This document shows positions 4,094 through 24,213 of a stretch of 24,440 nt of DNA, one piece after another. Source of the DNA: Candidatus Micrarchaeia archaeon (GTDB lineage: Archaea > Micrarchaeota > Micrarchaeia > Burarchaeales > JACRGF01); assembly GCA_038870455.1 (NCBI GenBank), contig JAWCPB010000017.1:1-24440 (forward strand), written 5' to 3'. Under the pieces are notes generated by a model. The model saw only the letters and a list, made by a program, of their open reading frames with translations, searched no databases and was not told where the DNA came from. Positions within the stretch are counted from its first letter, which is position 1. The number at the start of each line of letters is the position of its first letter. The translations under genes were made by a program, and so were the position numbers.

Positions 4094-4273
4094 ATGCCAA
4101 GCACGCACTCTTTCCCGTGCGCCCGCTGCGGGAGGCCTTACGAGACGGCAGTCACCGAGGAGTGGATTGACGGCGAGTGGGTTGCGCTGCGCAGGCACGT
4201 GTTCTGCAGCGCCGAATGCACGCGCGCGTTCGCAGAGATGACGGGCCAACCCTGGAATGGGGAAAGAAAGTAG
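4094..4273 (+). CDS. Small zinc-finger protein (CxxC...FCSxxC; TRASH/YHS/FCS-like), 59 aa
   Basis: Manual translation: MPSTHSFPCARCGRPYETAVTEEWIDGEWVALRRHVFCSAECTRAFAEMTGQPWNGERK*. Fills the intergenic gap, with TTTTTTAA about 25 nt upstream. Apparently just below the ORF-track length cut-off. Confidence 0.75.
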   Translation: MPSTHSFPCARCGRPYETAVTEEWIDGEWVALRRHVFCSAECTRAFAEMTGQPWNGERK

Positions 4274-6646: not shown

Positions 6647-8260
6647 ACCATATTTTTTCCTCAGCTCCTCCTCTCTCTTCTCCAGCCTCTTCTCTGCATC
6701 GAGCCTCTCGAGCCCGTATTCCCTCCTGTCCACGAACACCATGCCCGCCACCAGCCCCGGATGCACTTCCTCAACTTCGGCAAGCATCCCCAACGCCATG
6801 CGCCTGTAGTCCTCGTGCCCCTGCACGCTCGTCCGAAGCTCAACAAGGTGATAGAGCTCACGCAGATTGAGCCGCACATACCACCTTATTCTATAGGCCA
6901 GCGGCACGACGTACTGGGCCTGCACGGGCGCGTCAGCCGCGATGGCCTCCCACGCCTCCCTCGCTCTCTCCATGGCATCTCTATATCCCTTCTCTAGGCC
7001 CGCCTCGCCCAATGCCTCGGGCACGTCATAACCGTGCGCGCACCCGAGCAGCTGCCTTTCCTGCGTGAGCATCCTGTGCCTGTGCAGGTCCCTGTACATG
7101 CCGAAATTTCCCAAGAGGTCAAACGTGTAATACGCGTTCTCGAAGGCCCTGCCTGGCTTGTGCCGCCTGTTTTTCCTGTGCGCGGTATAGGCGCGCACTA
7201 TCGCGGCCCTCTCCTCAGGCCGCATGCCCCTTACCCGCTCGCGCAAGGCGGAGAGCGAGGCATTTGCGTGGGGATACAGCATTGCGGCCACCACCTTCTC
7301 TTCCGCATCGGCATCAAAATCAACCAGCTCGACGGACCTATCTCCCCTGGCTTCCGCCGCGATTTTTCCAGCAATCCCCTCCATCGCCTTGTTTGTTTCC
7401 CCGATGTACGCCTGCATTTCCTTCCCCTGCGGATTGTCCGCCCGCTTGACAAAGGATGGGATAACCTTCTCGAGTTCTCCGTGAATGTTGCTTGCCAGCA
7501 CGCGCGCTTCGGCCAGCGGGCTGGCGTACAGCTTGACAAGCAAATATTCAAACGCCCGCCCGTTTCCGAAAAGGCCGACGTTGGTGAGCGTGCCGGCGGG
7601 CAGCAGGCCCCTGAGGAGATCGCACGCCTTTGCCCTCACCGCGGCCGCGTACGCTCGCTCGCTCGTCCCCTCCTCCTTTGGAAACTTCTCCTCCACAAAA
7701 GCGCTCACGGGCTCGATGAGCCTCGCGTACGTGTCGAAAAGCAAATCGCACGTTGCCTCATAGAGCCGCGCGTGTGGTCCCTGCATGAGCTCGGGATCCC
7801 TGTAGTACTTGTACCGCCCGTTTTCCTTGTGATGGAACCACACGTACCGCGTGCTCTTCTCAAGCGGGGAGACTCCTATCCTCGCGTCCTCCAGCAGCTT
7901 GCTCGCGAGGATGCTGACGTTCTCGCACGCCACGTGCGCCCCGCCGAGCTCGGCCACGCTGTCGTCGCCAAAACCCACGAGCACCCTGTCGTAGAATTCC
8001 TCCGCCTTTCTTATCGCGATGTGCTGCTCAGCCCCTGCGGCCTCGCCCACAGCCACGATTTCCTTGAAGCCCATCTCCGGCTTGAGGATGAACTCGTCGA
8101 GCAGCACCCTGCGCAGGCTCTTCTCGCTCCTCGAGTAGCGCGAGAACAGCGCGCCCTTGACAACCTCGGGCAGGTTGGTCAGGCAGAAAACATCCTTGTC
8201 AAAGTTGGTGACGAAAGGGCGCAGCAGCGCCTGTTCTTCGGGAGTGAATGCCTCGGCCAC
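6638..8260 (-). CDS. thyX: FAD-dependent thymidylate synthase, long tandem-domain form
   Basis: ALFSRYSRS, GFGDDSVAELG and EKSTRYV in the N-terminal domain. RDLHRHR...QERQ and NLRELYHLVELRT in the C-terminal domain. Confidence 0.93.
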   Translation of the reverse strand: MAEAFTPEEQALLRPFVTNFDKDVFCLTNLPEVVKGALFSRYSRSEKSLRRVLLDEFILKPEMGFKEIVAVGEAAGAEQHIAIRKAEEFYDRVLVGFGDDSVAELGGAHVACENVSILASKLLEDARIGVSPLEKSTRYVWFHHKENGRYKYYRDPELMQGPHARLYEATCDLLFDTYARLIEPVSAFVEEKFPKEEGTSERAYAAAVRAKACDLLRGLLPAGTLTNVGLFGNGRAFEYLLVKLYASPLAEARVLASNIHGELEKVIPSFVKRADNPQGKEMQAYIGETNKAMEGIAGKIAAEARGDRSVELVDFDADAEEKVVAAMLYPHANASLSALRERVRGMRPEERAAIVRAYTAHRKNRRHKPGRAFENAYYTFDLLGNFGMYRDLHRHRMLTQERQLLGCAHGYDVPEALGEAGLEKGYRDAMERAREAWEAIAADAPVQAQYVVPLAYRIRWYVRLNLRELYHLVELRTSVQGHEDYRRMALGMLAEVEEVHPGLVAGMVFVDRREYGLERLDAEKRLEKREEELRKKYGSA

Positions 8261-8307
8261 ATCCTCTTTATCTCATCCCAGCGCTTTTAAATTCTCTTTC
8301 CAAAATC

Positions 8308-9339
8308 ATGTCCGTGCTGGAATTCATTCCCTTCGACCCAACTGCCTATGCGATAGCGCTTTCCATAGTCGCGCTCGCGGCCTCGTTTGCCGCAGCGCGC
8401 GTTTTCTATTTTGTTTTCAGCGGGCTCACGAAATTCTTCACGAGCAGAACGAGAACAACGCTGGACGACCGCATCCTGGCCGCAATAAAGCGGCCGCTCG
8501 AGCTCATCCTGCTCGTGGCGTGCTTCACCTACGCCGCCTCGGTGGTCAAGGGCCTTGCTTTTTGGGCTGACTTGCTCGGTTCCTTCAGCCTTGCCATCTT
8601 CGCCCTGCTCGCCGGCTACCTGCTCTCTGAGGCCACGGGCGCGGCCCTGCGCTGGTACTACGAGGAGGGAAGCAAGAGCTCGCGCATGGTCAGGCTTGAT
8701 GTTTCGCTCATCCCTCTGCTGCGCAAGATCTCCAAAGTCCTCATCTATGCCGTTGCCGTGTCGTTTGCGCTCAGCTTCCTCGGAATAAACATAACCGCCA
8801 TCCTGGCGATCGGCAGCATCACCGGCCTCATCCTCGGCCTTGCGAGCCAGGAGACGCTCGCCAACTTTTTCGCCGGCCTCGCGCTCCTATCGGATCGGCC
8901 GTTCGAGTACGGCGACTACCTGCGCTTTCCCACCGGCGAGGTGGCCGTGCTCAAGCGCATCGGCCTGCGCTCCTCCACGCTCGAGGACGCGGATCACAAC
9001 ACCATCGTCATCTCGAACAGCGAGCTCGCCAAGCAGCGCATCACAAACCTGTGCAGGCCCTCTCACAAGACCAGGATAACGCTCACCCTCGCGGTCGCCC
9101 ACGGCCAGGATCTCGAGCGCATCGCCGCGCTCATCACCCGCACGCTCTCGGGCGCGCGTATTCCAGGAATGATAAAGGATGAGCCACCCTCTGTAAGGGT
9201 GGCAAGCTGGAGCGAGAGCGGCGTACGTTTCTCCGTCATCTTCACCATTGACGACTTCAGGAGCGCGGCCGCGGCCACCGATGCAGCATATCGCGCGCTG
9301 TACGCCGCTTTTAGGAAAAACAAAGTAAAATTGCAGTGA
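8308..9339 (+). CDS. mscS: MscS family mechanosensitive channel
   Basis: GLASQETLANFFAG, DRPFEYGD, IGLRSSTL and ISNSEL motifs, with N-terminal TM helices. Confidence 0.93.
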   Translation: MSVLEFIPFDPTAYAIALSIVALAASFAAARVFYFVFSGLTKFFTSRTRTTLDDRILAAIKRPLELILLVACFTYAASVVKGLAFWADLLGSFSLAIFALLAGYLLSEATGAALRWYYEEGSKSSRMVRLDVSLIPLLRKISKVLIYAVAVSFALSFLGINITAILAIGSITGLILGLASQETLANFFAGLALLSDRPFEYGDYLRFPTGEVAVLKRIGLRSSTLEDADHNTIVISNSELAKQRITNLCRPSHKTRITLTLAVAHGQDLERIAALITRTLSGARIPGMIKDEPPSVRVASWSESGVRFSVIFTIDDFRSAAAATDAAYRALYAAFRKNKVKLQ

Positions 9340-9343
9340 TGGC

Positions 9344-10060
9344 ATGCCTTTCGCCTGTAACTGCTGCGCGAAGTGCTGCATGCATCTCAGGCAGCCCGCT
9401 GGGACAACGGGCGCGCCGCAGAAGGGCCCCGTCTTTTTTCTCGCAAAACCAGCGGAGCGCGGACCCACCCTGTTCGAGTGGGAAAAAGAGAGGCTGGAGG
9501 CAAAGGCAGCCGAGCTGGGCCTCTCTGCCCAAATCCTTCCTCTCCAGGTCGTATTCGACGCGAGCGTTGAGGGCGGCCGCGTTGTGGCAGCGCTGTGGCA
9601 TCTGGCCATGACGTCCTGTCCATTTCTGAATGACAAAAACCTCTGCGGCGTTTACGAGAACAGGCCGCTGGCATGCCGCGCCTTCCCTCTCTTCGGCTCG
9701 CGCGTTTCATGGAACAGGTTCAAGATAAAGCCTTTCGCGAGCGCGCTGTGCCCGAAGGCGATTGAGGTGAAGGCAGGCGGCAGGGAGGAATTCTTTCACG
9801 CGCTTGCCGAAGCCTACGGCGAGTGCTATGCCGCGGCGGAGAAGATGGACCTAGCGCTCGCCTTCAAGGACATAATGCTACATCGCCTGCTCTCCACTCC
9901 ATCGCTCAAGTTCGAGCGCGGCCCGCTCGAGTCTCTAAGGGCGCGCTTTTCCTCCTCCCCCGTTGTCGGCGCGCTGTCGCTCGCGCGCTCGCTGGGGCTT
10001 CTTCAGGAAGGCGAGCTGGCCGCCTCCCTCCGTCTCATCCGAGGCGATGAAAAGCCTTAA
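9344..10060 (+). CDS. YkgJ family cysteine-cluster protein
   Basis: FACNCCAKCC and CPFL...CGVYENRPLACRAFP motifs. Confidence 0.88.
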   Translation: MPFACNCCAKCCMHLRQPAGTTGAPQKGPVFFLAKPAERGPTLFEWEKERLEAKAAELGLSAQILPLQVVFDASVEGGRVVAALWHLAMTSCPFLNDKNLCGVYENRPLACRAFPLFGSRVSWNRFKIKPFASALCPKAIEVKAGGREEFFHALAEAYGECYAAAEKMDLALAFKDIMLHRLLSTPSLKFERGPLESLRARFSSSPVVGALSLARSLGLLQEGELAASLRLIRGDEKP

Positions 10061-10096
10061 AAAGGCGTTTGCAGAAGCCCTTTAGAGGCGATCGGC

Positions 10097-10675
10097 ATGA
10101 ACGGGAAAGGCAAGTTAGCTCTCGCAGTTTTTTCGCTGGCCCTGCTCTTCGGCTGCGCGGGCGGGCCTTCGCAGGCGGATTACGACAAGCTGCGCAGCGA
10201 CTTCGTCTTTCTCCAGCGCTCGTGCGACTCGCTGAACCGCAGCTTTGCCAACCTGACCGCCGAGTGCAACGACATCCTGTCGCAGAAGGCCGCGCTCGAG
10301 GCCGAGAAAGCCACTCTCTCGAGTCAGATAAGCTCGCTCAACACGCAGCTGAACGGCAGCGATACAGCGCTCGCGGCAGAGCGCGCCAAGCAGAATGCGA
10401 GCAAGGCGAGAATGGACAGCGCGATCGTCAAGCTCAATCTCTATAATGATACAAAGACGCTTCTGGCAAAGGGTTATGCTGTCACCACGAGCGAGCTCGT
10501 GGCGCATACGATAAAAATCAACGCGCTGAACGACTCGCAGCTCAACACGGAATGGGACGACATCCTCAACTGCGGGGCGTGCGCCAATGCGTCCTCGCTC
10601 GAGAATGCGTTCTATGCGCGCCTCCTCGGCCTCGCGCGCGCCGACATAGAGGCCGCGAAAGCGCAGCTGGGTTAG
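10097..10675 (+). CDS. Putative lipoprotein with coiled coil
   Basis: Signal peptide with lipobox LLFG-C, heptad-like middle region, several N-x-S/T sequons. Confidence 0.75.
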   Translation: MNGKGKLALAVFSLALLFGCAGGPSQADYDKLRSDFVFLQRSCDSLNRSFANLTAECNDILSQKAALEAEKATLSSQISSLNTQLNGSDTALAAERAKQNASKARMDSAIVKLNLYNDTKTLLAKGYAVTTSELVAHTIKINALNDSQLNTEWDDILNCGACANASSLENAFYARLLGLARADIEAAKAQLG

Positions 10676-11430
10676 AGCCCAAGTGCACGCTCGGTTAGCT
10701 GCTGCAGTCCCACGACAAATTTTTTAGTCGCCGCCATCTGCGCGGCGAGTATCCTGCCCGGCTCGAGGTACGCTTCCCTGTGGCAAAACAGCTCTTTCGG
10801 AAGCCGCGCTCCCGTTTTCATCGTTTTCAAAAACCAGTCGAGCACTTCCCCGGACATCCTGACCACAAGCAGAAGCGCGCCGAGCGCGTCCCCGTCATAA
10901 ACGTGTGTTTCCGGCAGCCCGGTGACGGCCTCTCCAAGTATCTTCCCGTGCTGGTAGTGCTGAGCTGCCCCGCCCTCGGCGAGCCATGTCAGCGCACAGC
11001 CCGGGAGCTTTCCTCTCGAAGGGAAAACCTCCATGAACATGCCGGCCTCGGGCTTTGCTTGCGTCAGCGCGTATTTTACCAGGAACTGTTGTGCCATGTA
11101 GCCGAAGCTGCTTCTTATGGAAAAATCGATTTTAACCGCAAGCTCTTCTGTCGAAAGCGCAGGGCGCCTGAGCCTGTCCGGGTCGGCGAGATAGCCGAAA
11201 AACGCTGGGCCGCCGTTTTTCTTTTCAGAGAAAAAACACGCGTGCCCGCGGGCGTTGATTTCGCCCCTTAGCCGAAAGTCTGCGAAAGCCCCGCAATTCC
11301 CCCATGCCTTCAGCACCTCGAGGATTTTTTTCCTCTGCCTGTGCACGTGCTTCCTGTAGGAGCTGGGCGTAACGCCCTGTGGGATATCGTTTCCGGCTAC
11401 CGCGAGCTCGACTTTCCCAGTTGCGCGCAC
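10672..11430 (-). CDS. Hypothetical protein
   Basis: 252-aa ORF filling the gap. GTG start preceded by AGGAG, stop overlaps the convergent gene's stop. No family recognised. Confidence 0.65.
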   Translation of the reverse strand: MRATGKVELAVAGNDIPQGVTPSSYRKHVHRQRKKILEVLKAWGNCGAFADFRLRGEINARGHACFFSEKKNGGPAFFGYLADPDRLRRPALSTEELAVKIDFSIRSSFGYMAQQFLVKYALTQAKPEAGMFMEVFPSRGKLPGCALTWLAEGGAAQHYQHGKILGEAVTGLPETHVYDGDALGALLLVVRMSGEVLDWFLKTMKTGARLPKELFCHREAYLEPGRILAAQMAATKKFVVGLQQLTERALGL

Positions 11431-22254: not shown

Positions 22255-22500
22255 ATGCAGGGCGCTGTTAAGAACACCACGGGTTTGTGCGAGAAACTCA
22301 ACAGGCACCTTTTCGCCGCCGCGGCATTTCTCACCGTAAGCTGGCCCGGCGAGCTGGATGAAAACGCAGTGAAGTTCTTCGGCGCCGCCGCGCTCGCGAG
22401 CGCCGCAATCAAAACCGTCTCCTTCCTGCGTGCGCGCGCGGCAGAGAAGCGCATCCGGAGAGAGCTTTCGGAGCGCGTGCTCTGCGACAAAATCCGATAG
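22255..22500 (+). CDS. Hypothetical small membrane protein
   Basis: Fills the gap. Two short hydrophobic stretches and a basic tail. Confidence 0.45.
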   Translation: MQGAVKNTTGLCEKLNRHLFAAAAFLTVSWPGELDENAVKFFGAAALASAAIKTVSFLRARAAEKRIRRELSERVLCDKIR

Positions 22501-22520
22501 CCGCCGGTCGTGTCGGATTG

Positions 22521-22540
22521 ACAATTATTTTTAACTTGTT
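22521..22540 (+). promoter_or_regulatory. Putative TATA box for the tRNA-Gly transcript
   Basis: TTATTTTTAAC about 25-30 nt upstream of tRNA G1 (22559). Confidence 0.6.
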
Positions 22541-22558
22541 TTTCCAAAGCACCTATGT

Positions 22559-22696
22559 GCGGCTGTAGTCTAGCCTGGTAGGACTCGACCTTGCCATAAC
22601 TTGCCGATGGCGAGTATGCGAAAAGGTCGTAGCCCGGGTTCAAACGCGCTGCTGGCGCAGGCGGTTCCAGCAGGGCTGAAACTCCCGGCGGCCGCA
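22559..22696 (+). tRNA. tRNA-Gly(GCC) with two introns: 37/38 (22597-22623) and 59/60 (22645-22682)
   Basis: Exons 22559-22596, 22624-22644 and 22683-22696 give a 73-nt cloverleaf with anticodon at 22593-22595. Both introns form BHB motifs (central helices UUGC/GCGA and UUCA/UGAA). Confidence 0.93.
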
Positions 22697-22766
22697 TTGC
22701 TGAACCGCAGGGGCTTCAGCTCGGGCACTCCTATTTACCCGAAAGTTGCAACCGCGCCGGTGAAAA

Positions 22767-22890
22767 TCCCGGCCGCCGCATGACGGCAATGGCTCGCCCT
22801 TCAGGCCATTTGCAATCCAGCTTTGAGGGCTGCGGCGGTAGTCTAGCCTGGTAGGACTTTGGCCTTCCAAGCCAACAACCCGGGTTCAAA
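22767..22890 (+). tRNA. Circularly permuted tRNA-Gly(TCC): 3' piece (nt 60-73) at 22767-22780, 5' piece (nt 1-59) at 22832-22890
   Basis: The pieces join into a perfect 73-nt cloverleaf with anticodon at 22866-22868. Leader 22752-22766 and trailer 22891-22900 form a BHB at 59/60. Confidence 0.92.
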
Positions 22891-22902
22891 CTCGGTGCGG
22901 GA

Positions 22903-24051
22903 TTAGAGCGCGAGAAAGAAGCCAGCTGAGAAAGCATCGCCCAGGCCTACGGTGCTCCTTATGTGCCGGATGCGATGGGCGGGCAGAAGGGCAAGCGAAA
23001 AATCTCCTTTCAGCGAACTAACTCTTGCCGCGATTTCTTTTGGGAGTTTTGCGCGCGGAGGCCTGAAGCGACGCAGCTCCCGCAAGTATGGAAATGTGCC
23101 CTTCTGTGCACGGTAGGCCGCGAGGCGTGAGGCAAAGCGAAGAGCGCGTTTGAGCGAATCCTCGGGGACTCGGCGTGAGAGCGCCAGGTGAAATTCGGCC
23201 GTATGCAGGATGACTGTGGGGCATATGCCGAGGAGGCGCGGGAGCGCGGCAACGCCCTCCTCCGGAAAGGCCAGCGCTCTGCGCGCGGCTTCGAGCTCGA
23301 GCTCGTTCAGCCCCAGCGAAGTGCAGAGAGGCGCGATGGCTTTCAGCGCCTGTCTCAGGACGCTCTCGCTCTGGAAGCTCCCGAGCTCGAGATGGAGCTC
23401 CAGCTCGGGATTTAGGCTTCTCCACTTGCGGATGAGGCCGGAGAGCGCGGCAATCCTGTGCGCGCAGGCGGGGGAAAGGAGGTGAAATCCCCCGAGCGCG
23501 ATTTTGCCTATCCGCGGAAGCTCGCGCTCGAGCGCGCGCTCGAACTCTCCGTCCAAACGCATCTCGGAATTTTCTGGATCGAACGTGGCGATGAATCGGT
23601 TGGAGCGAGGAATCTTTTTCCCAAACACAGCGTCACCCTCGCTGAACTCAAAGACGAAGTGCGTTCTCGCCTCCGCCTCACGGAAGAAGCTCCGGCTCGG
23701 GACAAAGCCCTCGGAAGCGGCGAGCAGCACATTTTTGTGAAGGAGACGCGCGAGCTCGGTGCTCTTTGTGTTCGCGTGCAGAAAGCACTTGACGCCGAGG
23801 TGGGCGGCCGCCTGGGCCATATTGCCAGCCTGCCCGCCTACACGCTTTTCCGCGATAACAAAATTCCGCAGGATGAAGTCTGCGGTTGTGCGGTCGATGA
23901 CGACCTCGCGAGCCCTGCCCTGCAGCATGCAGTCAATGAGAGGCGAAAGCGGAGGGGGAAGGTTGCTCACATCGCTGCCGCGTACGCGGATAATCGCATC
24001 GATGTTTGTATTAAACACGAACGCAGCGCGCGATGGCAGCGCGGATTTCAT
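22903..24051 (-). CDS. ADP-dependent glucokinase/phosphofructokinase family protein
   Basis: FNTNIDAI, RVGGQAGNMA, HFVFEFSEG, PRSNRFI, SLGLNELE and catalytic STVGLGDAFSAG. Start taken at MKSALP because the longer ORF overlaps the tRNA. Confidence 0.93.
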   Translation of the reverse strand: MKSALPSRAAFVFNTNIDAIIRVRGSDVSNLPPPLSPLIDCMLQGRAREVVIDRTTADFILRNFVIAEKRVGGQAGNMAQAAAHLGVKCFLHANTKSTELARLLHKNVLLAASEGFVPSRSFFREAEARTHFVFEFSEGDAVFGKKIPRSNRFIATFDPENSEMRLDGEFERALERELPRIGKIALGGFHLLSPACAHRIAALSGLIRKWRSLNPELELHLELGSFQSESVLRQALKAIAPLCTSLGLNELELEAARRALAFPEEGVAALPRLLGICPTVILHTAEFHLALSRRVPEDSLKRALRFASRLAAYRAQKGTFPYLRELRRFRPPRAKLPKEIAARVSSLKGDFSLALLPAHRIRHIRSTVGLGDAFSAGFFLAL

Positions 24052-24088
24052 GAAACAATTAAAAACTGCGACATTAAAATAGTACTGA

Positions 24089-24205
24089 GCGGCCGTCATC
24101 TAGCCTGGTAGGATCTGAGCTTCCCATGACCTTTTTTCCGAAGTTAAGCGGAAAAGAAAGGGACGGAGACAGCTCATTGCCCGGGTTCAAATCCCGGCGG
24201 CCGCA
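24089..24205 (+). tRNA. tRNA-Gly(CCC) with a 44-nt canonical intron (24127-24170)
   Basis: Exons 24089-24126 and 24171-24205 give a 73-nt cloverleaf with anticodon at 24123-24125. BHB central helix UUCC/GGAG. ATTAAAAA upstream. Confidence 0.93.
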
Positions 24206-24213
24206 ACCATCCC

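What the first reader, a model, noticed from the sequence alone, without database searches (positions are those of the whole stretch)
22752..22900. Circularly permuted tRNA-Gly(UCC) gene with a strict BHB at position 59/60
Seen: the 5' piece (22832-22890, G1-A59, anticodon TCC) stops at GGTTCAAA and has no 3' end downstream. The missing TCCCGGCCGCCGCA (nt 60-73) lies upstream at 22767-22780, separated by 51 nt. Its acceptor strand CCGCCGC pairs 7/7 with GCGGCGG, whereas the other two Gly genes end in CGGCCGC, so this piece is specific to the UCC half. The flanks form a complete BHB: outer helix CCGCGCCGG(22752-60)/TCGGTGCGG(22892-900), 9 bp with 2 G-U; central helix TGAA(22761-64)/TTCA; 3-nt bulges AA|T and AA|C; then the T-stem. 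Known: permuted tRNAs are rare, described in some unicellular algae (e.g. Cyanidioschyzon merolae) and in the archaeon Thermofilum pendens, and mature through a circular intermediate. Inference: this is a functional permuted gene in what looks like a different archaeal lineage, and standard scanners would probably miss it. I cannot verify whether it has been reported.
Basis: partly seen in the sequence, partly recalled or inferred. Interest (0 to 1): 0.93.

Follow-up and report, generated by a model that had tools for sequence, protein, structure and literature searches.

The report
Circularly permuted glycine tRNA gene
The only gene found for one glycine tRNA of this tiny archaeon is written tail-first, so its RNA must be cut, closed into a circle and reopened to work; among archaea this rare layout is published only for Thermofilum pendens.

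Summary
The 5' piece (22832-22890, G1-A59, anticodon TCC) has no usable 3' end downstream. The matching 3' piece (22767-22780, U60-A73) lies 51 nt upstream on the same strand. Joined by script, the pieces give a perfect tRNA-Gly(UCC) cloverleaf. Leader and trailer form a strict bulge-helix-bulge (BHB) motif at 59/60.

It is not a misassembly. Contigs from two sequencing runs span it, and two related genomes carry the same layout. In the second genus, two acceptor pairs changed on both sides, so the upstream piece co-evolves with the downstream one. Seven other relatives in the order keep the gene in normal order with an intron in the T-loop, six of them at 59/60.

No second Gly(UCC) gene was found in the three family genomes, and GGA codons are common. 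The genome encodes an epsilon2-type splicing endonuclease (close to ARMAN-2), RtcB, RNase Z, a CCA-adding enzyme and an RNase P RNA candidate.

Expression, the single transcript and the 124-nt circle are inferred, because no RNA run was listed. This is a new member of a known kind: the same 59/60 permutation as in Thermofilum pendens and Cyanidioschyzon merolae. I found no published case in Micrarchaeota or DPANN, and the scan had not noted this before.

The parts
22732..22737 (+). TATA-like hexamer (TATTTA), a possible own promoter. It lies closer to the leader than the TATA boxes of other tRNA genes lie to their 5' ends.
   Evidence: Read and conserved in G001. This is weak, inference only. 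Co-transcription from the upstream tRNA-Gly(GCC) promoter is equally possible.
22752..22760 (+). Leader strand of the outer BHB helix (h')
   Evidence: Pairs 9/9 (2 G-U) with 22892-22900. The MFE fold pairs eight of these nine positions the same way. The G22756A change in the sister species turns a G-U into an A-U.
22761..22764 (+). Central BHB helix, leader strand (TGAA)
   Evidence: Pairs 4/4 with TTCA at 22885-22888. The neighbouring GCC gene's 59/60 intron uses the same TGAA/TTCA design.
22765..22767 (+). 3-nt bulge AA|U. The predicted cut is between 22766 and 22767.
   Evidence: BHB geometry. The cut position within the bulge is inferred by analogy with the GCC intron, whose predicted borders equal a natural 38-nt deletion.
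22767..22780 (+). 3' piece of tRNA-Gly(UCC): U60, T-stem 3' strand, acceptor 3' strand and discriminator A73. No CCA is encoded.
   Evidence: It is identical in G001 and covaries with the 5' piece in G002.
22781..22831 (+). 51-nt intervening spacer, to be removed from the circular intermediate
   Evidence: It has no T-run of 4 or more and no TATA-like element at the usual distance. About 9 of 51 columns differ between G000 and G001, while both tRNA pieces are identical.
22832..22890 (+). 5' piece of tRNA-Gly(UCC): G1-A59 with acceptor 5' strand, D arm, anticodon arm (TCC), variable loop, T-stem 5' strand and T-loop up to A59
   Evidence: An intact Gly(UCC) gene from a relative aligns to it only over positions 1-59.
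22889..22891 (+). 3-nt bulge AA|C. The predicted cut is between 22890 and 22891.
   Evidence: BHB geometry.
22892..22900 (+). Trailer strand of the outer BHB helix (h')
   Evidence: Pairs with 22752-22760. Identical in G001.
22559..22696 (+). Neighbouring tRNA-Gly(GCC) gene with introns at 37/38 (22597-22623) and 59/60 (22645-22682). It is the context and a possible co-transcription partner.
   Evidence: Its 59/60 intron is exactly absent from the sister species' contig and from G001.

Best explanation
This is a functional, circularly permuted tRNA-Gly(UCC) gene with its junction at position 59/60.

The proposed pathway is as follows. One transcript runs through leader, 3' piece, 51-nt spacer, 5' piece and trailer. 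It starts either at a weak promoter just upstream or at the promoter of the adjacent tRNA-Gly(GCC) gene. Leader and trailer pair, and together with the T-stem they build a BHB motif. The epsilon2-type splicing endonuclease cuts in both bulges, after 22766 and after 22890. RtcB joins A59 to U60 and closes a 124-nt circle. RNase P cuts 5' of G1 and RNase Z cuts 3' of A73, which releases the spacer. The CCA-adding enzyme then completes the 3' end.

Shown here: the gene layout, the structure, the conservation and covariation, the DNA-level support, and the presence of the enzyme genes. Inferred: the single transcript, the cleavage sites, the circle, the order of the steps, and the in-situ origin from a gene with a 59/60 intron.
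For: (1) Anatomy: a perfect cloverleaf after joining. All BHB pairs were verified, and the BHB structure lies within 0.4 kcal/mol of the MFE.

(2) Conservation: G001 (same genus) has the same layout at 95% identity. Both tRNA pieces are identical, the spacer is variable, and a leader change turns a G-U into an A-U. G002 (another genus of the family) also has the 3' piece upstream, with an 11-nt spacer. Its acceptor pairs 5-68 and 6-67 changed on both sides (C-G to U-A, G-C to U-G).

(3) Relatives: I read the Gly locus of 19 relatives. Two are permuted. Seven are in normal order with a T-loop intron, six of them at 59/60 and one elsewhere in the T-loop. Eight have a continuous T-arm. One is cut by a contig end. 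One locus was not UCC.

(4) Distribution: in 29 genomes of the order and 401 of the class, a pattern for '3' end then Gly 5' end within 80 or 60 nt' gave 15 and 16 matches. Only the three family genomes are truly permuted. The other matches with complementary acceptor strands are ordinary tandem genes (G003, G013, G333, G267).

(5) DNA support: a 1,666-nt contig of run X1 covers 22597-23100 without any difference. A 22-kb contig of run X2 from the sister species spans the whole locus.

(6) Need: ARAGORN, Rfam, a D-arm motif scan and an anticodon-arm scan found no other Gly(UCC) gene in G000. A search of G000-G002 with an intact relative's gene also found none, and every match stops at 59/60. 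GGA makes up 3,560 of 245,038 codons in 633 long ORFs.

(7) Machinery: an EndA of 387 aa matches the ARMAN-2 epsilon2 enzyme (4fz2) at E = 3e-135 over its full length. The residues that PMC12397907 names as catalytic and bulge-binding align as identical by my count. Also present are RtcB, RNase Z at 312 bits, a CCA-adding enzyme and an RNase P RNA candidate.

(8) Splice-site logic: the 38-nt 59/60 intron predicted in the neighbouring GCC gene, which has the same TGAA/TTCA design, is exactly the stretch missing from the sister species.
Against: - There are no RNA data. No RNA run was listed, so the transcript, the junction and the circle are unobserved.
- The assembly is 90% complete, so a second Gly(UCC) gene cannot be strictly excluded. 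G001 at 95% and G002 at 89% also show none.
- Folding energy of the precursor is not better than shuffles (z = -1.32).
- The strict outer helix is not conserved in G002. There the predicted motif is T-stem, 3-nt bulge and central helix, followed by a 5x5 internal loop and a distal helix. In a longer context the trailer instead folds on itself.
- In G002 the 3' piece is followed by a run of seven T, which could terminate transcription before the 5' piece.
- The promoter is unclear. The TATA-like hexamer sits only 15-20 nt before the leader.
- The RNase P RNA candidate scores 48.2 bits, below Rfam's gathering score of 84.
Confidence: 0.82

Rival explanations
1. This is a split tRNA with adjacent halves. 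The leader plus 3' piece and the 5' piece plus trailer would be made as two separate transcripts that pair in trans through the same BHB, T-stem and acceptor stem. They would be joined at 59/60 without a circular intermediate.
For: In G002 the 3' piece is followed directly by seven T, a typical archaeal termination signal. Adjacent split halves are published for Aeropyrum pernix and Thermosphaera aggregans (abstract of PMC3218864). The end product and the joining chemistry would be the same, so DNA alone cannot tell the two apart.
Against: The 51-nt spacer of G000 and G001 has no TATA-like element at the position seen in 13 other tRNA genes of this genome, roughly -38 to -19. It also has no T-run of 4 or more. 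The 11-nt spacer of G002 cannot hold a promoter at the usual distance. In the published Thermofilum case the same layout was read as one transcript with one promoter (PMC3218864, section 7).
Confidence: 0.1
2. This is a decaying relic. A truncated tRNA-Gly(UCC) gene and a leftover 3' exon lie near each other but are no longer used, and GGA is decoded by a tRNA not present in the assembly.
For: The assembly is 90% complete. Many tRNA genes of this genome escape the scanners because of multiple introns: ARAGORN lists only 25 and Rfam 22.
Against: Both pieces are 100% identical between G000 and G001 while the spacer between them differs at about 9 of 51 columns. There are compensatory acceptor changes in G002. 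The layout is kept in 3 of 3 family genomes, none of which shows a second copy. Only three Gly-type D arms exist in G000, all at this locus.
Confidence: 0.05
3. This is an assembly artefact. The order of the two pieces would have been produced by a mis-join among the three similar Gly genes.
For: Three similar tRNA-Gly genes lie within 1.7 kb, which is a setting where short-read assemblers can err.
Against: Logan contigs from two runs span the locus in the same order, one of them from the sister species with 20 substitutions. Two other genomes, G001 and G002, have the same order with different spacers. X1 may be the sample from which the window was assembled, so it is not fully independent. 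X2, G001 and G002 are other sequences.
Confidence: 0.02

Closest known systems
[quoted passage not shown]
   Same: It is archaeal. The 3' piece lies upstream of the 5' piece on the same strand. The junction is exactly at 59/60 with a BHB. The standard tRNA model gives a low, truncated score. It is a single-copy decoder, so processing is essential.
   Different: The isoacceptor differs: Gly(UCC). The spacer is 51 nt (11 nt in the second genus) against 7 and 1 nt. No CCA is encoded here, whereas CCA is encoded in T. pendens. There is no additional canonical intron in this gene. The host has an epsilon2-type endonuclease rather than the (alpha-beta)2 type. The phylum is different, and here normal-order relatives with a 59/60 intron are at hand.
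Type IV (T-loop, 59/60) permuted tRNA genes of the red alga Cyanidioschyzon merolae (Soma et al. 2007, recalled; review PMC3978253, passages read)
   Same: The permutation point is the same, a BHB forms at the junction, and no CCA is encoded. The spacer falls within the reported range of 1-74 bp. The circular intermediate was shown experimentally there.
   Different: That case is a eukaryotic nuclear gene with a eukaryotic splicing endonuclease. There is no sequence relationship, so the origin is independent.
59/60 introns of Candidatus Micrarchaeum acidiphilum ARMAN-2 tRNAs and its epsilon2 endonuclease (Fujishima et al. 2011, PMC3239211, passages read; structures 4FZ2 and 9W2K, PMC12397907, passages read)
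   Same: The endonuclease is of the same type (E = 3e-135 to 4fz2). The preferred site is the same, 59/60. That enzyme was shown to cut both strict hBHBh' and relaxed hBH motifs at 59/60 in vitro.
   Different: In the passages I read, those genes are in normal order and no permuted tRNA is described for ARMAN. The supplementary tRNA tables could not be seen.
Split tRNAs with adjacent halves (tRNA-Asp of Aeropyrum pernix and Thermosphaera aggregans, PMC3218864, abstract read)
   Same: The pieces lie next to each other and are joined through a BHB by the splicing machinery.
   Different: There the halves are in normal order and separately transcribed. Here the order is inverted and no promoter-like element is seen before the 5' piece.

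Membership tests
Circularly permuted tRNA gene (BHB-mediated, type IV junction 59/60) | The 3' portion of the tRNA is encoded upstream of the 5' portion, on the same strand and close by | tested here: met
   22767-22780 lies 51 nt upstream of 22832-22890. The order is the same in G001 and G002.
Circularly permuted tRNA gene (BHB-mediated, type IV junction 59/60) | The joined pieces give a complete canonical cloverleaf | tested here: met
   ARAGORN on the script-joined 73-mer finds a 7-bp acceptor stem, a 4-bp D stem, 5-bp anticodon and T stems, a 7-nt T-loop and anticodon TCC. The G002 join also folds with a closed acceptor stem and T-arm.
Circularly permuted tRNA gene (BHB-mediated, type IV junction 59/60) | Leader and trailer form a BHB motif at the junction | tested here: met
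   Strict hBHBh' in G000 and G001. The motif is relaxed in G002, with no helix directly after the second bulge.
Circularly permuted tRNA gene (BHB-mediated, type IV junction 59/60) | Both pieces lie on one transcript driven by one promoter upstream of the 3' piece | tested here: inconclusive
   There is no TATA-like element at the usual distance before the 5' piece and no T-run in the spacer of G000 and G001. The upstream TATA-like hexamer is weak and oddly placed. G002 has a T7 run after the 3' piece. No RNA data.
Circularly permuted tRNA gene (BHB-mediated, type IV junction 59/60) | Maturation passes through a circular RNA intermediate | not testable with these tools
   No RNA run was listed for this DNA.
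Circularly permuted tRNA gene (BHB-mediated, type IV junction 59/60) | The host encodes a splicing endonuclease, an RNA ligase and end-processing enzymes | tested here: met
   Epsilon2 EndA, RtcB, RNase Z and CCA-adding enzyme. The RNase P RNA candidate is below Rfam's threshold.
Split (trans-spliced) tRNA | Each piece has its own promoter and is transcribed separately | tested here: inconclusive
   No promoter-like element is seen before the 5' piece. The 11-nt spacer of G002 is too short to hold one. Transcripts were not observed.
tRNA pseudogene or relic | No selective constraint on the pieces, and a functional copy elsewhere | tested here: not met
   The pieces are invariant between species while the spacer varies. 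There are compensatory changes. No other copy was found in three genomes.

The most novel reading that the evidence does not exclude
This would be the first permuted tRNA gene outside Thermofilum among archaea, and the first in a DPANN or Micrarchaeota-type lineage with an epsilon2 endonuclease. It is fixed across a whole family as the sole decoder of GGA. It sits beside its likely precursor state: sister families keep the same gene, at the same locus, in normal order with a 59/60 intron. The neighbouring GCC gene still gains or loses such an intron within the genus. Together this would be a natural series showing that permuted genes arise in situ from T-loop-intron genes. It might also be matured from a two-tRNA precursor that needs three BHB cleavages.
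Probability: 0.6. Interest if true: 0.7.

Novelty: new member of a known kind. Interest (0 to 1): 0.62.

Why it matters
The 2014 review counted 34 permuted tRNA genes, only 2 of them archaeal and both in one species (PMC3978253). How such genes arise is still argued from models. This locus adds a second archaeal lineage, with a different type of splicing endonuclease. It also brings the comparison set needed to study the origin: permuted, intron-bearing and continuous versions of the same gene, at the same locus, in related genomes.

There is a practical side too. The gene is mis-modelled by standard scanners. Genome annotations of this family will therefore show a defective or missing tRNA-Gly(UCC), and tRNA-based completeness or decoding inferences will be wrong.

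Tried and rejected
- **RNA evidence.** No RNA holder was listed for window 22300-23300, so expression could not be examined.
- **Metagenome scan.** I scanned for the leader plus 3' piece motif. It gave 108 stretches, of which 80 loci were returned and read. None was a new permuted gene. Two loci with the same sequence hold a normal-order two-intron tRNA-Gly(UCC) of another archaeon. One 'perm?' flag was a chance match in GC-rich DNA. The other 77 had no tRNA 5' piece nearby. Records of the window's own genome may have been left out of that scan.
- **Other permuted tRNAs in this genome at 59/60.** Two regex scans were too loose to use (190 and 438 hits). The ARAGORN-filtered version found only this locus as credible. 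One search crashed on parsing and was rerun. Other junction positions were not scanned.
- **Relic of a tandem duplication.** I ran local alignments of the DNA upstream of the leader against the 5' piece plus trailer, and of the DNA downstream of the trailer against the leader plus 3' piece. None scored better than shuffles in G000 or G002: 1,633, 1,713, 749 and 1,325 of 2,000 shuffles scored at least as well. The duplication model therefore has no direct sequence support here.
- **False leads.**
  - ARAGORN's 'tRNA-Gly(tcc)' on contig C14 is a tRNA-Thr(UGU) with a D-arm intron.
  - G001:C2 is tRNA-Arg(GCG).
  - G333 and G267 have complementary acceptor strands but are ordinary tandem GCC and UCC genes.
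  - G003 and G013 likewise have their own downstream 3' ends.
- **Folding z-score.** It is not significant and is not used as support.
- **Promoter.** The promoter/terminator tool models bacterial sigma-70 sites, so I did not use it. I inspected promoters by eye on 19 upstream regions.
- **Literature.** Searches found no paper describing a permuted tRNA in Micrarchaeota or DPANN. The library lacks many subscription journals, and supplements were closed. A listing in a database or in a supplementary table, such as the ARMAN tRNA tables of PMC3239211, cannot be excluded.

Full report
**What is there.**
The window is contig C17 of a 1.04-Mb, 60% G+C archaeal assembly in 51 contigs, 90% complete. 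Three glycine tRNA genes lie at its right end.
- tRNA-Gly(GCC) is at 22559-22696 and has two introns: 22597-22623 at 37/38 and 22645-22682 at 59/60.
- The Gly(UCC) element under study is at 22752-22900.
- tRNA-Gly(CCC) is at 24089-24205 and has one intron at 37/38.

In the UCC element the sequence from G1 to A59 (22832-22890) is a normal tRNA 5' part with anticodon TCC. After the T-loop letters TTCAAA it runs into unrelated sequence. The 14 missing letters (U60, T-stem 3' strand, acceptor 3' strand, A73) stand at 22767-22780, 51 nt upstream on the same strand. A script listed every proposed pair:
- acceptor stem 7/7 Watson-Crick;
- T-stem 5/5;
- central helix TGAA/TTCA 4/4;
- outer leader-trailer helix 9 bp with two G-U;
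- two 3-nt bulges, AA|U and AA|C.

**Is it more than chance?**
ARAGORN folds the script-joined 73-mer as a flawless tRNA-Gly(tcc). In place, ARAGORN reports a deformed tRNA at 22831-22903 with two G.G mismatches in the acceptor stem and a 6-nt T-loop. The Rfam tRNA model matches positions 8-63 only, at 34.1 bits. This is the same low-score, truncated signature that led to the Thermofilum discovery (PMC3218864, section 7).

The structure with the full BHB plus cloverleaf is only 0.4 kcal/mol above the unconstrained minimum. The unconstrained fold already finds the leader-trailer helix, T-stem, acceptor stem, D arm and anticodon arm. Folding energy as such is not better than shuffles (z = -1.32), so I do not count it.

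As a specificity control I made all loose '3' piece upstream of 5' piece' joins at 59/60 in the genome. There were 73,397 of them, and ARAGORN accepted 8. Three were this locus, three were ordinary tRNA genes, and two were poor folds inside coding sequence.

**Not an assembly artefact.**
Contigs that Logan assembled from public runs were laid on 22400-23100. A 1,666-nt contig of run X1 covers 22597-23100 with no difference. A 22-kb contig of run X2 spans the whole stretch with 20 substitutions and 7 small gaps, so it belongs to a sister species.

X1 may be the window's own sample. X2 is other DNA. The X2 contig lacks exactly 22645-22682, the 38-nt intron I had predicted at 59/60 of the GCC gene from its BHB, which uses the same TGAA/TTCA design. 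That natural deletion supports the way the cut sites are placed in this T-loop design.

**Relatives.**
A search of 60 related genomes with 22745-22905 found the whole element at 95% identity in G001, the same genus. Almost everywhere else only the 5' piece matched, and most of the stronger matches ended at or within a base of A59.

*G000 against G001.* Both tRNA pieces are identical (14/14 and 59/59). About 9 of the 51 spacer columns differ. The one leader change, G22756A, turns a G-U pair into A-U.

*G002, another genus of the family.* The 3' piece stands 11 nt upstream of the 5' piece. Acceptor pairs 5-68 and 6-67 have changed on both sides relative to G000 (C-G to U-A, G-C to U-G), so the stem stays 7/7. 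The upstream piece therefore co-evolves with the downstream one.

*The G002 junction motif is relaxed.* T-stem, 3-nt bulge and central helix are kept. A 5x5 internal loop replaces the clean second bulge, and in a longer context the trailer folds on itself. However, the ARMAN-2 enzyme of this type cuts relaxed hBH motifs at 59/60 in vitro (PMC3239211, passages).

*The 19 relatives' loci I read:*

| State of the Gly(UCC) gene | Number | Genomes |
|---|---|---|
| Permuted | 2 | G001, G002 |
| Normal order with a T-loop intron | 7 | G003, G007, G012, G016, G018, G025 at 59/60; G015 at another T-loop position |
| Continuous T-arm | 8 | G008, G019, G024, G026, G032, G042; also G027 and G028, cut by a contig end just after position 60 |
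| Cut by a contig end after A59 | 1 | G021 |
| Locus not UCC | 1 | G057 |

*Pattern searches.* I searched for a Gly 3' end followed within 80 or 60 nt by a Gly 5' end. This gave 15 matches in 14 of 29 genomes of the order and 16 matches in 15 of 401 genomes of the class. Only G000, G001 and G002 are permuted. The other cases with complementary acceptor strands (G003, G013, G333, G267) are ordinary tandem genes with their own 3' ends. The pattern depends on the D-arm sequence of this order, so this means 'not found in those searched', not absent.

*Synteny.* The flanking order is similar in relatives: the GCC gene, then UCC, then what looks like the same gene on the opposite strand. In G000 that gene is an ADP-dependent kinase family gene. 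This fits a rearrangement in situ. The downstream similarity was judged by eye and was not aligned.

**Is it needed?**
- ARAGORN and Rfam find no other Gly(UCC) gene in G000. The ARAGORN 'Gly(tcc)' on C14 is a tRNA-Thr(UGU) with a D-arm intron.
- Only three Gly-type D arms exist in the genome, all at this locus. The only TCC anticodon arm in a tRNA context is this one.
- An intact Gly(UCC) gene from G008 was used as the query against G000, G001 and G002. It matches positions 1-59 (7-60 in G002) and then stops. No second copy appears, and a weaker G001 hit is tRNA-Arg.
- GGA makes up 3,560 of 245,038 codons (14.5 per thousand) in 633 non-overlapping long ORFs.
- By the wobble rules (established knowledge), the GCC and CCC tRNAs cannot read GGA.

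**Machinery.**
- *Splicing endonuclease.* The genome encodes a 387-aa three-unit enzyme that matches chain 4fz2_A over residues 3-387 at E = 3e-135. PMC12397907 identifies 4FZ2 and 9W2K as the epsilon2 enzyme of ARMAN-2. The residues that paper names (Y236, H251, K282, R275, W384) align as identical by my count.
- *Ligase.* RtcB is interrupted by an intein.
- *End processing.* RNase Z scores 312 bits, above its cut-off. A CCA-adding enzyme is present. A full-length RNase P RNA candidate scores below Rfam's threshold, 48.2 against 84 bits, with E = 6e-13.
- *CCA.* None follows A73, so CCA must be added. This differs from the Thermofilum genes, which encode CCA.

**Mechanism, and what is inferred.**
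The best reading is the pathway described for permuted tRNAs. One transcript forms the BHB between leader and trailer. The endonuclease cuts after 22766 and 22890. RtcB joins A59 to U60 and closes a 124-nt circle. RNase P and RNase Z remove the 51-nt spacer, and CCA is added.

The single transcript is inferred. The spacer of G000 and G001 has no TATA-like element where 13 other tRNA genes of this genome have one, and it has no T-run. The 11-nt spacer of G002 cannot hold a promoter. A weak TATA-like hexamer lies at 22732-22737. Read-through from the GCC gene, 55 nt upstream with no T-run between, is equally possible.

The main rival is separate transcription of the two pieces, that is, a split tRNA with adjacent inverted halves. 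The T7 run after the 3' piece in G002 speaks for it. I give it about 10%. A relic and a misassembly together get well under 10%.

**Origin.**
Seven other relatives in the order carry a T-loop intron in this gene, six of them at 59/60. The neighbouring GCC gene has a 59/60 intron in G000 and G002 but not in G001. The usual model therefore fits: tandem duplication of an intron-bearing gene, followed by loss of the outer exons. I found no sequence relic of the lost exons, since the alignments score no better than shuffles. The model remains an inference.

**Comparison with what is known, and novelty.**
The 2014 review counts 34 permuted tRNA genes. Only two are archaeal, both in T. pendens and both at 59/60 (PMC3978253, passages; PMC3218864, section 7). 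The tRNAscan-SE 2.0 paper of 2021 still cites only that work for archaeal permuted tRNAs.

Five full-text searches found no report for Micrarchaeota or DPANN. The ARMAN papers describe 59/60 introns and the epsilon2 enzyme but no permuted gene in the passages I read. Supplements were closed and many journals are not in the library.

The endonuclease match agrees with that, but I did not place the genome phylogenetically. No earlier finding of the scan describes a permuted tRNA.

This is a new member of a known kind. The junction and logic are the same as in Thermofilum and Cyanidioschyzon. It is new in lineage, isoacceptor and endonuclease type, and in having its normal-order, intron-bearing counterparts at hand.

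Noticed in passing
window 22559-22696 (introns 22597-22623 and 22645-22682): tRNA-Gly(GCC) carries two introns and is missed by the Rfam tRNA model. ARAGORN mis-calls it as one gene spanning 22558-24209. Its 38-nt 59/60 intron is exactly absent from the sister species (run X2 contig; G001) but present in G002. This is a presence/absence difference of the intron within one genus, with borders at the predicted BHB cuts.
   Followed up: partly
window 24089-24205: tRNA-Gly(CCC) has a 44-nt intron at 37/38. The intron sequence resembles a repeated hairpin element (next item).
   Followed up: no
G000 contigs C39 about 4105-4221, C33 about 9142-9202, C26 about 15872, C1 about 20650: A conserved hairpin unit (ACGCT-TTTCCGA-AGCGT followed by CGGAAAAGGGTT) recurs, partly in tandem copies about 58 nt apart. 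It lies in or next to tRNA introns.
   Followed up: no
G000 contig C16, about 7574-10771 (locus L154 375-3572, minus strand): The RtcB ligase gene is a 1,065-aa ORF interrupted by an intein. The Pfam Intein_splicing match covers residues 185-678, between the two RtcB segments.
   Followed up: partly
G000 contig C2, about 67399-68457 (locus L022 1468-2526, minus strand): A second, 352-aa protein has tRNA_int_endo_N and catalytic C-terminal domains. It resembles other archaeal EndA chains only weakly (best E = 8e-14), and 4fz2 (ARMAN-2) is not among its hits. Its role beside the epsilon2 enzyme is unknown.
   Followed up: partly
G000 contig C14 7800-7922 (minus strand): A tRNA-Thr(UGU) gene has an intron of about 50 nt in the D-arm region. 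ARAGORN mis-called it as tRNA-Gly(tcc) with an intron, and Rfam matches model positions 10-63 only.
   Followed up: partly
G000 contig C8 13053-13309 (minus strand): A full-length match to the archaeal RNase P RNA model scores 48.2 bits against a gathering score of 84, with E = 6e-13. It may be a divergent RNase P RNA.
   Followed up: no
window 22699-22720: A perfect 6-bp hairpin (GCTGAA ... TTCAGC) lies directly after the GCC gene and contains the same TGAA/TTCA words as the BHB central helices. Its function is unknown, and its stem words are conserved in G001.
   Followed up: no
whole genome G000: ARAGORN finds only 25 tRNA genes and Rfam 22, many with long or non-canonical introns, including several 59/60 introns on C1, C19, C26 and C32. 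The tRNA set of this genome is heavily disrupted and under-annotated by standard tools.
   Followed up: partly
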